NCBI RefSeq assembly: GCF_024298765.1
Contig: NZ_CP101210.1
Reading direction: 5' to 3' (one strand)
From: Escherichia coli
GTDB taxonomy: Bacteria > Pseudomonadota > Gammaproteobacteria > Enterobacterales > Enterobacteriaceae
DNA length: 64,000 bases
Within the stretch, counting starts at the first letter, position 1. Each line of letters opens with the position of its first letter. Made by a program: the position numbers. Positions 51,272 through 54,200 of the stretch are shown piece by piece.

Positions 51272-54200
51272 GGAATGTTCATCTTGTGCTGTTGCACGGA
51301 TGGGGACTGAATGCCGAAGTGTGGCGTTGCATTGACGAGGAACTGAGCTCGCATTTTACGCTGCACCTTGTTGACCTGCCCGGCTTCGGGCGTAGCCGGG
51401 GATTTGGTGCGATGTCACTTGCTGATATGGCCGAAGCCGTGCTGCGACAGGCACCTGATAAAGCCATTTGGTTAGGCTGGAGTCTGGGCGGGCTGGTGGC
51501 AAGCCAGATTGCGTTAACCCATCCCGAGCGTGTTCAGGCGCTGGTCACCGTGGCGTCGTCGCCTTGTTTTAGTGCTCGTGACGAGTGGCCGGGGATAAAA
51601 CCGGACGTGCTGGCGGGATTTCAGCAGCAACTCAGTGATGATTTTCAGCGTACAGTGGAACGGTTCCTTGCGTTACAAACCATGGGTACTGAAACGGCGC
51701 GCCAGGATGCGCGGGCGCTGAAGAAAACCGTTCTGGCGTTACCGATGCCGGAGGTTGACGTGCTTAATGGCGGGCTGGAAATCCTGAAAACGGTCGATCT
51801 CCGTCAGCCGCTGCAAAACGTGTCCATGCCGTTTTTGCGATTGTATGGCTATCTCGATGGTCTGGTGCCGCGCAAAGTGGTGCCGATGCTGGATAAACTC
51901 TGGCCGCACAGCGAGTCGTACATTTTCGCCAAAGCGGCCCATGCGCCGTTTATTTCGCATCCGGTCGAGTTTCGTCACGTGCTGGTGGCGTTGAAGCAGA
52001 GGGTGTAGGTGGCTTTTGAAATGGCGAGACAGAATTTTACTGACTCGCCGCAGCCAACTCTTCTTCTGACACCCCGGTAAAGCGCATGATGTCCGCAAGA
52101 GGGACTCCGGATTACAGCATTCTTTTGGCGATATCCAGGGCTTCCAGGCGTCGACCCAATAAATAACCAATCAGGTAACTAATAAGATATTCTCTTTCTG
52201 CATCTGTCATTAAAACCATCCTTTACGTTATTGATGATTTATTTCAGCAAGGTCTTCAACCGTCAGGCTGGTAAATCGCAGAACGTCCTCAAGAGAAACT
52301 CCGGCGTCCAGCATGGTTTTGGCAATATTTAGGGCGTTGGTACGTATACCTTTCTGAAACCCTTCCTGCCGCAATCTTTCCGCAATAGTCATTAAGCTCT
52401 CCTTGTGTTTCGGTGAATGTTCGGCAACGCCGTCGATAAAATCGTTAAAACGTACCGCATCGCCGGTTTGCAAGATGTAATTAAACAGCCCTTTGATTTG
52501 TCTGTCATTAGCGTATCCACTACTTAATAAGCAGGCCATTTGCTCTACCAGCCCCATCAGATCGCGTTGACGAATATGTTTTTGAATTAACTCCAGCAGC
52601 GCCATACGTCGGTGCTGCATGATTTCATCATCAGGCATGACGGTGACATCAATCAGCGGAAATGCGGAGGCATAAAGCTGCCTTGCCAGGTTGGGATCGG
52701 CGAAACAATCCAGCCAACACAGCGAATAGGGATAGGGGCTTTCAATACCGTGGTAAAACAACAATGGCACCACCATCGGCAACGTTTTGTATCCGGCATC
52801 CAGGTGATTTTGCATTGCGGCAATAGCGTAACGCATCATGCGAAATGCGATCAGTTTGTTTGAGGTGCTTTGATGTTCAATCAGACAATAGATATATCCC
52901 GGTCCTTGTTCCGTTTTCACCGACCACAGCACGTCGGAATAGCTTTCACGCAGATCGTCATCAATAAAGCTGCTCGACTCCAGCTTGAGGGTTTTCATAT
53001 CACAGAGCGCGTGAATAGGTGCCGGTAAATGGAACGCAAGAAAATCGCGTGCCGTGTCCGGTTGGCGTAAAAAGAGTTTGAATAGTGCATCATGTGGGGT
53101 GGAACTCTGCTTTTTGCTCATGGCGTTCCTTCACCTGTTGTTTGAATGCCGTGACTCTACGCGCCACTCCACACCTGTGCATTAGCGAGTTTTCATCCCT
53201 GCGAGACGCTTTCAGAGGAACTTACGTTGTACTGCAAGGGTTGCATTTTTATGGAAAGCCGTGACTAGTCCTGATATACGTTGACACTTTTCTGTCTGTA
53301 AAACGCCTGATGAACGTCATCGGGTGTTTTGTATTTCAGAGCCAGATGTGGCCGCTCATGGTTATAAATTGCCACGGACTCTTTGACCATTTCCCGGGCC
53401 TGCGCCAGGTCTGCAGGACGCGAGAGTAAAAACTCATTTTTCAGGATACCGTTTATTCGCTCAGCCAGTGCGTTCTGGTAGCAGTCATAACCATCCGTCA
53501 TTGAACAGGTTATTCCATTTCTTTCATGAACTGACTGATAGAGCGCTGAACAGTATTGCAGCCCCCTGTCAGAATGATGCACCAGGGGACTCGTCGTTTT
53601 TCTCAGCCTCAGCGCCTGTCTGAACGCTTTTACCACATTTTCTGTCTGCAGGTTTTCCCCAACATGGTAGCCCATAATTTTTCTGGAGCAGGCATCGGTG
53701 ACCAGACTCAGATAGGCCGTACCATTGCGCAGTGGAAGGTAAGTAATATCGGCGACCCAGACCTGTTCTGGTTCAAGAGCGGTAACCTGTTCAGGGCCTG
53801 GTTTAAGCAGGTTTGGATGTCGGTAGAAGCGATGATGACTGTTGGTAGTTTTGTGATATGCCCGTTTTACTGGCACCAGGAGTCGGTATTCATCGAGCAG
53901 GTTAAACAGGCGGTCTCGCCCGATATTCAGCCTTTTATCGGCCTGAGTGTTCAGCAGATAGTGCAGCTTACGCGCACCGATTCGGGGCTGACGACATCTG
54001 ACACGGGCAACAAAATCAAGAACCTGAGCATGATGTTCCTGCCGTTTTCTGCGCCTTGTGTTGTCCTGATACCATGCCTGTCTGCTGTGTCCCAGGAACA
54101 GACATGCACGCGTCACAGTTATTTTGGGGGCCGGACTTTGCGCGAGGACTTGCCGGGCCGCTTTTTTACGATACTCACCCCGTAATCATTTTTAAGGACA

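What the first reader, a model, noticed from the sequence alone, without database searches (positions are those of the whole stretch)
52037..52210. Degenerate duplicate of the RpnA C-terminal tail immediately downstream of rpnA
17 bp after the yhgA stop, on the same strand, lies a ~170-bp segment ~75% identical to the last ~165 bp of yhgA itself. It begins with an ATG preceded by an AAGGA Shine-Dalgarno and encodes MTDAEREYLISYLIGYLLGRRLEALDIAKRML, then an in-frame TAA, then SGVPLADIMRFTGVSEEELAAASQ, colinear with the YhgA C-terminus from its internal Met. Rpn nucleases have been reported to carry intragenic small C-terminal proteins (RpnS) that act as antitoxin-like inhibitors; a free-standing, partly decayed tail copy next to the gene could be a relic of tandem duplication or a separately expressed small protein (32 aa).
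Basis: partly seen in the sequence, partly recalled or inferred. Interest (0 to 1): 0.6.

Follow-up and report, generated by a model that had tools for sequence, protein, structure and literature searches.

The report
Truncated stand-alone RpnS gene after rpnA
Right after the E. coli nuclease gene rpnA lies a second, separate copy of its small antitoxin-like tail gene, cut short by a stop codon; such downstream copies are known for two sister genes, and this one shows that the K-12 rpnA tail arose by fusion with it.

Summary
On the minus strand, 17 nt after the rpnA stop, a ~190-nt unit repeats the rpnA "small gene" at 73-76% identity (z = 27 against shuffles). The unit has a Shine-Dalgarno sequence, an ATG and the three-helix tail.

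It is a stand-alone RpnS-type gene, of the kind Zhong et al. 2023 described downstream of rpnC and rpnE (ypaA), but not rpnA.

- **Intact elsewhere:** a 57-codon gene sits at the same feoC-rpnA-x-bioH position in E. ruysiae and E. whittamii, with CAA at codon 33.
- **Truncated in E. coli:** 853 of 5426 complete genomes carry the copy. Every allele checked has TAA at codon 33, which leaves a 32-residue helix-1-only ORF.
- **Weak constraint:** the copy changes mostly by amino-acid replacements (pN/pS about 0.5-1.9). The in-gene tail has no replacements wherever rpnA is intact. A decaying relic is therefore the best reading.
- **Origin of the K-12 tail:** the common K-12-type rpnA (about 83% of genomes) is an in-frame fusion that deletes window 52154-52359. 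Its crystallised tail (7TH0) is mostly the downstream copy. A rarer allele (42 genomes) fused at a different point.

This is a new member of a known kind, of moderate interest. Whether the 32-residue peptide is made is untested.

The parts
52228..53121 (-). rpnA (yhgA), 297-aa allele of recombination-promoting nuclease RpnA
   Evidence: ORF. NCBIfam NF007361 (RpnA equivalog) scores 674 bits against a cutoff of 583. The window is 100% identical to E. coli strain 104, where this gene is annotated rpnA.
52228..52402 (-). In-gene RpnAS unit: internal Shine-Dalgarno AAGGAG (52402-52397), internal ATG (52392-52390), then 54 codons and the stop. This is the intragenic antitoxin-like small protein.
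   Evidence: Sequence. The internal start is homologous to the K-12 RpnAS start that was shown experimentally (PMC10400941). It has no nonsynonymous changes across E. coli and E. ruysiae alleles with an intact rpnA.
52211..52227 (-). 17-nt spacer between the rpnA stop and the start of the copy. It contains the copy's Shine-Dalgarno AAGGA (52223-52219).
   Evidence: The spacer is identical in E. ruysiae (0 of 17 mismatches). No terminator-like site was found.
52112..52210 (-). Truncated rpnASs ORF: ATG, 32 codons, then a premature TAA (52114-52112). It encodes helix 1 only.
   Evidence: The AlphaFold2 model of the repaired protein has helix 1 at residues 3-33. The TAA is present in 11 of 11 sampled E. 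coli two-tail loci, and the 52-nt TAA context is exact in 796 of 853 genomes. The 32-aa ORF is already deposited as a hypothetical protein, for example AKK50226.1.
52154..52189 (-). Three tandem 12-nt repeats (TATCTTATTAGT TACCTGATTGGT TATTTATTGGGT) encoding YLIS-YLIG-YLLG. They lie in the four-amino-acid-repeat zone of helix 1.
   Evidence: Sequence and alignment with other RpnS tails. The copy number is the same in every allele seen.
52037..52111 (-). Remnant after the premature stop: 24 in-frame codons (helices 2-3, SGVPLADIMRFTGVSEEELAAASQ) and the original TAA.
   Evidence: It matches residues 26-49 of the RpnAS crystal chain 7TH0 (repaired copy residues 19-57 against chain residues 11-49, E = 1e-13). 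The K-12 tail aligns to the 3' 107 nt of the copy at 92.5% identity. One allele has a second stop here (L097).
52154..52359 (-). 206-nt segment absent from K-12-type rpnA alleles. Its deletion fuses rpnA codon 254 in frame to codon 20 of the downstream copy, at a shared GGGG.
   Evidence: Alignments.
51238..52008 (+). bioH, the convergent neighbour. It ends 28 nt from the end of the copy.

Best explanation
**What it is.** The segment is a stand-alone RpnS-type gene, here called rpnASs, that belongs to the rpnA toxin/antitoxin-like locus. An old tandem duplication copied exactly the rpnA "small gene": the internal ribosome-binding site, the ATG and the three-helix HTH_Rpn_C tail.

**State in other species.** In E. 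ruysiae and E. whittamii the copy is still an intact 57-codon gene.

**State in E. coli.** In the E. coli lineage that keeps it (about 16% of complete genomes, this window included), a single C->T change turned codon 33 (CAA) into TAA. What can still be translated is a 32-residue peptide that equals helix 1, the dimerisation helix with the four-residue repeats. It lacks helices 2 and 3.

**How it most likely works.** The copy has no terminator before it and keeps its Shine-Dalgarno sequence, so it is probably co-transcribed with rpnA and may be translated. This step is inferred, not shown. Its evolution shows little purifying selection. Its repeat region is one four-residue unit longer than the cognate in-gene tail and has a different, hydrophobic make-up. 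By the RpnC result of Zhong et al., a repeat mismatch abolishes inhibition, so the copy is unlikely to neutralise RpnA. It is most likely a decaying relic.

**Demonstrable evolutionary role.** The copy served as a recombination partner. In-frame deletions between the in-gene tail and the copy produced the single-tail alleles. These include the K-12 allele, whose C-terminal 38 residues come from the downstream copy.
For: **The duplicate is real and coding.**

**It belongs to a known kind.** Downstream RpnSs genes of rpnC and rpnE are described, and YpaA is detected as a protein (PMC10400941).

**Intact orthologues share the synteny.**
- 57-aa orthologues sit in the same feoC-rpnA-x-bioH position and carry the precomputed Pfam hit PF27070 HTH_Rpn_C.
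- bioH is only 91-92% identical there, so these are separate species. This favours inheritance from a common ancestor, but rpnA and its tail are less diverged than bioH, so exchange between species is not excluded.
- The E. whittamii protein differs from the repaired window copy only at E7D.

**Domain homology.** The repaired copy matches the RpnAS crystal chain 7TH0 with E = 1e-13. The AlphaFold2 model has pLDDT 90 with helices at 3-33, 38-45 and 49-56.

**The TAA is general in E. coli.**
- 853 of 5426 genomes carry the copy.
- The 52-nt TAA context is exact in 796 of them. The CAA and TAT versions of that context, and junction queries for the two GAA haplotypes, found no complete genome.
- 11 of 11 sampled loci have TAA.

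**Constraint is relaxed.**
- Within E. coli, the pre-stop part has 3 nonsynonymous and 0 synonymous polymorphisms.
- The post-stop part has 4 nonsynonymous (one a new stop) and 2 synonymous.
- The in-gene tail has 0 nonsynonymous and 4 synonymous.
- Pairwise pN/pS of the copy is mostly 0.5-1.9, against 0 for the in-gene tail wherever rpnA is intact.

**Single-tail alleles are mosaics.**
- The K-12 type joins the in-gene 5' part to the copy's 3' part at GGGG.
- A second type joins at TTTACC and occurs in 42 genomes.
- Two-tail alleles carrying K-12-like intact copies exist in metagenome contigs L015 and L105.
Against: - Across 853 genomes the ATG, the Shine-Dalgarno sequence, the reading frame and the 174-nt length are all kept. 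The sampled loci show no indels, and every sampled BLAST hit matched in one piece. This is more tidy than expected for an old bacterial pseudogene.
- In this strain the post-stop part has no amino-acid difference from the intact E. whittamii gene. Decay is therefore slight, or the stop is recent.
- The pN/pS estimates rest on 174 nt and very few substitutions. Some pairs give low ratios (window against E. whittamii, 0.11).
- Intact copies in E. ruysiae show similarly high pN/pS. High ratios could therefore reflect diversifying selection on a defence module rather than loss of function.
- No expression data were available.
- The local Pfam-A scan did not report an Rpn tail domain for the repaired protein. 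That family assignment rests on precomputed hits for the orthologues.
Confidence: 0.75

Rival explanations
1. The 32-residue (or 35-residue) helix-1 peptide is a functional micro-protein. It would be co-transcribed with rpnA and translated from its own Shine-Dalgarno sequence. It would pair with the long dimerisation helix of RpnA-L or RpnA-S, acting as a partial antitoxin, an anti-antitoxin or a tuning factor. On this view the TAA is an adaptive shortening rather than a defect.
For: - The start signals are intact in all sampled alleles, and the TAA is fixed in all of them.
- The stop falls at the last residue of predicted helix 1 (helix 3-33; stop at codon 33), so the product is a clean structural unit.
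- Helix 1 is the dimerisation interface in the RpnAS crystal structure (PMC10400941).
- There is no terminator between rpnA and the ORF.
- No indels were seen in the 11 sampled loci.
Against: - Polymorphisms inside the 32 codons are all nonsynonymous (S11I, G19D, L25P, and further protein variants). One is a helix-breaking Pro.
- The repeat region differs from the cognate tail in both length and chemistry. Repeat mismatch abolished RpnS action in the RpnC test (PMC10400941).
- The peptide matches no family on its own.
- No expression evidence was found.
Confidence: 0.15
2. The downstream copy is kept as a silent donor cassette. Recombination between it and the in-gene tail, possibly promoted by RpnA itself, swaps the C-terminal specificity module of toxin and antitoxin at once. 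The copy would be maintained for that diversification, like orphan C-terminal modules in polymorphic toxin loci.
For: - There are two independent in-frame fusions with different junctions.
- Several copy haplotypes are mosaic in their central part: RRLEALDIAKRML, RRLEALDIAKIMLE and EQSKALHIAKIMLE.
- Zhong et al. speculate that RpnL may initiate such recombination (PMC10400941).
Against: - Each fusion observed destroys the cassette, because it is a deletion. It is a one-way loss, not a reusable switch.
- With the TAA in place, any junction upstream of codon 33 would truncate RpnA.
- Selection for future variability is hard to sustain. The pattern is equally expected from accidental deletion between diverged repeats.
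- The junctions are 4- and 6-nt microhomologies, which fits illegitimate recombination.
Confidence: 0.09
3. The similarity is chance, or reflects a non-coding repeat (REP element, terminator or small RNA) rather than a coding duplicate.
For: None found.
Against: - z = 27 against shuffles.
- The similarity is colinear in the protein frame from the ATG to the stop.
- Intact 57-aa orthologues exist.
- The only Rfam match is a sub-threshold chance one, no terminator was found, and the fold z-score is -0.35.
Confidence: 0.01

Closest known systems
YpaA / RpnESs, the stand-alone RpnS homologue downstream of rpnE in E. coli K-12 (Zhong et al. 2023, PMC10400941)
   Same: It is a small separate gene directly downstream of an rpn gene on the same strand. 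It is homologous to that gene's own C-terminal RpnS domain, has its own start, and carries a four-residue repeat zone in helix 1. It arose from its own upstream rpn gene.
   Different: YpaA is intact and was detected as a protein. The rpnA copy in this window carries a premature TAA at codon 33 and shows relaxed constraint. An rpnA version is not mentioned in the main text of that paper, and its supplements were not available here.
[quoted passage not shown]
   Same: It is present in only some strains. [quoted passage not shown] That is exactly what the K-12-type and the second rpnA alleles show.
   Different: It lies at a different locus and derives from a different paralogue. Here the fusion products are the majority alleles (about 83%), and the two-tail state survives only with a nonsense codon in complete E. 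coli genomes.
RpnAS, the intragenic antitoxin of K-12 RpnA (crystal structure 7TH0)
   Same: It has the same three-helix HTH_Rpn_C fold. Residues 19-57 of the repaired copy align with residues 11-49 of 7TH0 (E = 1e-13). The stretch after the K-12 fusion junction is 86% identical by my own residue-by-residue count (30 of 35).
   Different: RpnAS is translated from inside rpnA. The copy is a separate cistron with eight more residues in helix 1 (two more four-residue units), and in this window it is truncated after helix 1.
Orphan or displaced C-terminal toxin/immunity modules downstream of cdiA and rhs genes. This is an analogy from general knowledge and was not tested here.
   Same: Extra C-terminal modules lie downstream of the main gene and can recombine with it to change its C-terminus.
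   Different: The proteins are unrelated. Those modules usually lack start signals and come with immunity genes. Here the module is itself the antitoxin-like domain and carries its own ribosome-binding site.

Membership tests
RpnSs (stand-alone RpnS gene downstream of an rpn gene) | Lies directly downstream of an rpn gene on the same strand | tested here: met
   The start is 17 nt after the rpnA stop, on the minus strand. rpnA identity is confirmed by NCBIfam NF007361.
RpnSs (stand-alone RpnS gene downstream of an rpn gene) | Homologous to the Rpn C-terminal small domain (HTH_Rpn_C PF27070 / DUF4351) | tested here: met
   The copy is 73-76% identical in nucleotides to the rpnA tail. The repaired protein matches 7TH0 RpnA with E = 1e-13 and positions 254-292 of NF007361. 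Intact orthologues carry a precomputed PF27070 hit. The local Pfam-A scan gave no Rpn hit.
RpnSs (stand-alone RpnS gene downstream of an rpn gene) | Own ribosome-binding site and start codon, colinear with the internal start of the parent gene | tested here: met
   The copy has AAGGA, 8 nt, then ATG. rpnA has AAGGAG, 4 nt, then its internal ATG. The two align.
RpnSs (stand-alone RpnS gene downstream of an rpn gene) | Intact reading frame for the whole three-helix domain | tested here: not met
   TAA at codon 33 in the window and in all 11 sampled E. coli loci. The feature is met in E. ruysiae and E. whittamii orthologues and in rare metagenome alleles.
RpnSs (stand-alone RpnS gene downstream of an rpn gene) | Four-residue (12-nt) repeat zone in helix 1 whose number varies between strains | tested here: inconclusive
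   Three 12-nt repeats are present (YLIS/YLIG/YLLG). No copy-number variation was seen among about 20 alleles. The residues are hydrophobic rather than the usual Gly plus charged pattern.
RpnSs (stand-alone RpnS gene downstream of an rpn gene) | Protein is synthesised and binds or inhibits the matching RpnL | not testable with these tools
   No expression or activity data were found. Literature searches found nothing on this ORF.
Pseudogene (nonsense-truncated relic) | Disabling mutation relative to intact orthologues | tested here: met
   CAA (E. ruysiae, E. whittamii) becomes TAA at codon 33, which removes helices 2-3.
Pseudogene (nonsense-truncated relic) | Loss of purifying selection | tested here: inconclusive
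   Polymorphism is dominated by nonsynonymous changes, and pN/pS is mostly 0.5-1.9, against 0 for the in-gene tail wherever rpnA is intact. Counts are tiny, and intact copies behave similarly. No indels were seen.

The most novel reading that the evidence does not exclude
The truncated copy is not junk. One possibility is that the helix-1 peptide is made and tunes the balance between RpnA toxin and antitoxin. The other is that the silent downstream tail serves as a recombination cassette, possibly cut by RpnA itself, that lets the locus change the specificity helix of toxin and antitoxin in one step. That would be a built-in diversification device for a defence gene.
Probability: 0.1. Interest if true: 0.7.

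Novelty: new member of a known kind. Interest (0 to 1): 0.35.

Why it matters
Rpn nucleases are a recently recognised toxin/antitoxin-like phage-defence family in which the antitoxin is read from inside the toxin gene.

- **A third locus.** The analysis adds rpnA to the loci that have a separate downstream antitoxin-like copy.
- **Three states at one locus.** The copy is intact in sister species, nonsense-truncated in about 16% of complete E. coli genomes, and fused into the gene in about 83%.
- **The K-12 reference tail is chimeric.** The K-12 RpnA/RpnAS used for the biochemistry and the crystal structure has a C-terminus that came from the downstream copy. The 292-aa and 297-aa RpnA tails are therefore not simple repeat-number variants of one another.
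- **Ready-made test material.** Natural two-tail strains (UTI89, 536, ATCC 11775) could be used to test how tail identity sets the specificity between toxin and antitoxin.
- **Annotation.** The 32-aa "hypothetical protein" entries are fragments of this gene.

Tried and rejected
- **Outgroup scan.** The scan of genome contigs with RpnA returned almost only distant paralogues (Photorhabdus, Xenorhabdus, Erwinia). The one Escherichia orthologue had an IS-disrupted rpnA (E. whittamii). It could not settle the ancestral state. Look-ups by exact protein sequence did that instead.
- **Pfam.** The Pfam-A scan of the repaired 57-aa protein gave only weak, irrelevant hits. The Rpn tail family PF27070 appears only in precomputed annotations.
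- **Non-coding explanations.** The Rfam, terminator/promoter and RNA-fold checks were negative, so these were dropped.
- **Supplements.** The supplementary files of Zhong et al. are not held. I could not check whether an rpnA downstream copy is listed there.
- **Literature.** Searches for the peptide sequence or for "RpnASs" found nothing relevant.
- **Chimeric assembly.** I considered that the metagenome allele L015 is a chimeric assembly. I rejected this as unlikely, because its junction (TTATTGGGGGAACAA) shares no long k-mer with either parental type. It is still a single 5x-coverage contig, and no complete genome has it.
- **Recent transfer.** I considered recent transfer of the two-tail allele from E. 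ruysiae into E. coli. Flanking genes show normal within-species divergence (97%) between the window and K-12, and species-level divergence (91-92%) to E. ruysiae. Vertical descent is therefore the simpler reading. However, the in-gene tail itself is oddly conserved (1.2% divergence).
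Full report
**1. The observation**

The window is E. coli, 100% identical to strain 104 over the region. rpnA (yhgA) lies on the minus strand at 53121->52228 and encodes 297 aa. bioH converges on it and ends at 52008.

The downstream segment reads as follows on the minus strand:
- 17 nt after the rpnA stop there is AAGGA, then 8 nt, then ATG at 52210.
- 32 codons follow (MTDAEREYLISYLIGYLLGRRLEALDIAKRML), then TAA at 52114-52112.
- 24 further in-frame codons follow (SGVPLADIMRFTGVSEEELAAASQ), then TAA at 52039-52037.

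The segment aligns with the end of rpnA at 76% mean column identity. An ungapped 91-nt core is 73% identical. The local alignment score is 41, against 8.7 +/- 1.2 for dinucleotide shuffles (z = 27).

The similarity begins at the internal Shine-Dalgarno sequence and ATG of rpnA (52402-52390) and ends at the stop codon. The repeated unit is therefore exactly the "small gene" RpnAS.

No terminator-like site separates rpnA from the copy. The only Rfam match is a sub-threshold chance one, and the RNA fold is unremarkable (z = -0.35).

**2. What is already known**

Zhong et al. 2023 (PMC10400941) reported four relevant things:
- The Rpn C-terminal domains are translated separately from internal starts, as RpnS proteins that block the toxic full-length nuclease.
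- The RpnAS crystal structure is a three-helix bundle that dimerises through a long first helix. That helix holds four-residue repeats of variable number.
- A mismatch in repeat number abolishes inhibition (tested on RpnC).
- Second, separate copies (RpnSs) lie downstream of rpnE (ypaA, detected as a protein) and, in some strains, of rpnC. [quoted passage not shown]

An rpnA downstream copy is not mentioned in the main text. The supplements are not held, and no other paper in the library mentions it.

**3. Identity of the segment**

- With codon 33 repaired, the copy matches the crystallised K-12 RpnAS (7TH0): residues 19-57 against residues 11-49, E = 1e-13. It also matches positions 254-292 of the RpnA equivalog NF007361.
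- A protein search found intact 57-aa proteins with Gln (CAA) at position 33. They are labelled E. ruysiae or E. coli there. The 'E. coli' ones that I located sit in E. ruysiae-like genomes (bioH 91.4% identical to the window). An exact look-up added E. whittamii.
- Their contigs show the same gene order, feoC - rpnA - 57-aa gene - bioH - gntX, with the precomputed Pfam hit PF27070 HTH_Rpn_C on both rpnA and the small gene.
- bioH and gntX there are only 91-93% identical to the window. These are separate species. This favours inheritance from a common ancestor, but rpnA and its tail are less diverged than the flanks, so exchange between species is not excluded.
- The E. whittamii protein differs from the repaired window copy only at E7D.
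- An AlphaFold2 model of the repaired protein (pLDDT 90) has helices at 3-33, 38-45 and 49-56. The TAA therefore leaves helix 1 and removes helices 2 and 3.

**4. Distribution and the stop codon**

- 853 of 5426 complete E. coli genomes (15.7%) carry the two-tail arrangement at 96.6-100% identity. They include UTI89, 536 and the type strain ATCC 11775.
- A 52-nt probe centred on the stop is matched exactly by 796 of them.
- The same probe with CAA or TAT is matched exactly by none.
- Probes for two-tail alleles with GAA and a K-12-like copy found no complete genome.
- All 11 sampled loci have TAA, including three drawn from the 57 inexact matches. One of these has a second stop further on.
- Rare intact versions at E. 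coli-level divergence exist only in metagenome contigs: L104 (TAT), L105 (GAA, from a polished long-read contig) and L015 (GAA).
- The exact 32-aa ORF is deposited many times as a "hypothetical protein" (for example AKK50226.1, on at least 1000 contigs).

**5. Constraint**

Polymorphisms among E. coli two-tail alleles:

| Part | Nonsynonymous | Synonymous |
|---|---|---|
| In-gene tail | 0 | 4 |
| 32 pre-stop codons of the copy | 3 (S11I, G19D, L25P) | 0 |
| Post-stop part of the copy | 4 (one a nonsense) | 2 |

Nei-Gojobori counts give pN = 0 for the in-gene tail in every comparison where rpnA is intact. The only replacements occur in E. whittamii, where an IS has broken rpnA. The copy gives pN/pS mostly between 0.5 and 1.9, also among intact E. 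ruysiae copies.

These numbers are small. They point to weak or no purifying selection on the copy.

Against simple decay:
- No indels were seen in the sampled loci.
- The start signals are kept.
- In this strain the post-stop residues are still identical to the intact E. whittamii protein.

**6. Relation to the K-12 allele**

K-12-type rpnA (292 aa) has only 28 nt between its stop and bioH. Aligned with the window:
- It matches the in-gene tail up to [11 protein letters not shown].
- It then lacks 206 nt (window 52359-52154).
- It then continues in the downstream copy.

The junction is a shared GGGG at a Gly codon and is in frame: rpnA codon 254 joins copy codon 20.

After the junction, K-12 is 86% identical in protein to the copy but 47% to the in-gene tail of the window (my own residue-by-residue count).

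A second allele type ([38 protein letters not shown]) switches from the in-gene sequence to the copy at TTTACC. It occurs in 42 genomes.

Two different sharp junctions are what recombination between two pre-existing tails predicts. A duplication starting from a single-tail gene would not produce them.

The metagenome allele L015 carries a two-tail arrangement whose copy reads ...YLLG-EQSKALHIAKIMLE... That is the expected direct progenitor of the K-12 fusion. It is a single low-coverage contig.

About 4518 complete genomes (83%) have the K-12-type tail, and at least 3369 have the exact junction 31-mer. The RpnAS that was crystallised and assayed is therefore a chimera whose last 38 residues descend from the downstream copy.

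**7. How it most likely works**

*Shown:*
- It is a separate cistron with its own Shine-Dalgarno sequence and ATG, and no terminator precedes it.
- It is homologous to the antitoxin-like RpnS domain.
- It is truncated after helix 1.

*Inferred:*
- It is co-transcribed with rpnA and may be translated into a 32-residue helix.
- Its helix 1 is one four-residue unit longer than the cognate tail and two units longer than K-12. Its repeats are hydrophobic (YLIS/YLIG/YLLG).
- By the RpnC mismatch experiment of Zhong et al., it would not pair with RpnA(297). It would therefore be dispensable, which fits the drift and the nonsense codon.

I put about 0.75 on "nonsense-truncated relic of a stand-alone RpnS gene". 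I put about 0.15 on a functional helix-1 peptide and about 0.1 on maintenance as a recombination cassette. The role as a recombination partner in the past is demonstrated by the mosaic alleles. Selection for that role is not.

**8. Context beyond Escherichia**

Proteins at least 90% identical to RpnA fall into two large Escherichia clusters of 297 aa and 292 aa. The next relatives are at most 76% identical.

Among 78 Rpn loci from other genera, 12 have a tail-like coding stretch within 700 nt downstream on the same strand. Downstream tail copies are therefore a general habit of the family, as Zhong et al. noted.

**9. Verdict**

The finding is real and correctly located. Its kind is already known. 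The rpnA instance, its fixed nonsense codon in E. coli, its intact state in sister species, and the fusion origin of the K-12 tail appear not to have been described in the literature I could search.

It is a new member of a known kind, of moderate interest. Expression and activity tests are the missing evidence.

Noticed in passing
window 53258-54577: An IS3-family insertion sequence sits between feoC (54639-54884) and rpnA, ending 137 nt upstream of the rpnA start. It has 40-nt imperfect terminal inverted repeats, orfB at 53265-54116 and orfA at 54119-54523, on the minus strand. K-12 has no IS here. It may cut rpnA off from its native promoter or supply an outward one.
   Followed up: partly
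L016/L100 (E. whittamii), L096 (E. coli K99B), L103 (Escherichia sp. KTE114), L094 (NRG 857C): The feoC-rpnA-bioH interval is an insertion and decay hot spot. E. whittamii has an IS605-family TnpB element inside rpnA. Strain K99B has a MazE/MazF-like toxin-antitoxin pair between rpnA and bioH. KTE114 has IS remnants upstream of rpnA. NRG 857C has rpnA annotated as an N-terminally truncated pseudogene.
   Followed up: no
window 52228-52392 compared with L009: The in-gene RpnAS tail is only 1.2% diverged between E. coli and E. ruysiae. By comparison, bioH and gntX are about 8% diverged and the rpnA N-terminal domain 4.7%. There are no amino-acid changes wherever rpnA is intact. The cause is either very strong constraint, including at silent sites, or recent exchange of this patch. 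It is unexplained.
   Followed up: partly
protein P0128 (E. coli, 361 aa, annotated ISNCY family transposase): This is another Rpn paralogue in which two tail modules are fused in frame: ...[25 protein letters not shown]...ANNH. It is a read-through version of the gene-plus-downstream-copy arrangement.
   Followed up: no
loci L023, L026, L037, L040, L044, L046, L047, L050, L056, L057, L060, L067: 12 of 78 Rpn loci from Photorhabdus, Rouxiella and an Azoarcus MAG have a stretch 76-96% identical in protein to the gene's own last 60 residues, within 700 nt downstream on the same strand. Several differ from the parent in the number of four-residue repeats.
   Followed up: partly
window 52154-52189 (minus strand): The three 12-nt repeats of the downstream copy encode hydrophobic units (YLIS, YLIG, YLLG). 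In-gene Rpn tails usually have units of Gly plus charged residues. The copy number was invariant in all alleles seen, unlike the hypervariable repeats reported for RpnS.
   Followed up: partly
loci L104, L105, L015 (metagenome contigs): Rare two-tail alleles at E. coli-level divergence have an open 57-codon copy. L104 has TAT (Tyr) at codon 33, which looks like a one-base reversion of TAA. L105 and L015 have GAA with K-12-like distal sequence. None of these occurs in the 5426 complete genomes.
   Followed up: partly
window 51739-52170 (minus strand): A 143-codon ORF runs antisense through the 3' end of bioH and into the downstream copy in another frame. It looks like a mechanical artefact of the ORF listing, not a gene.
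   Followed up: no
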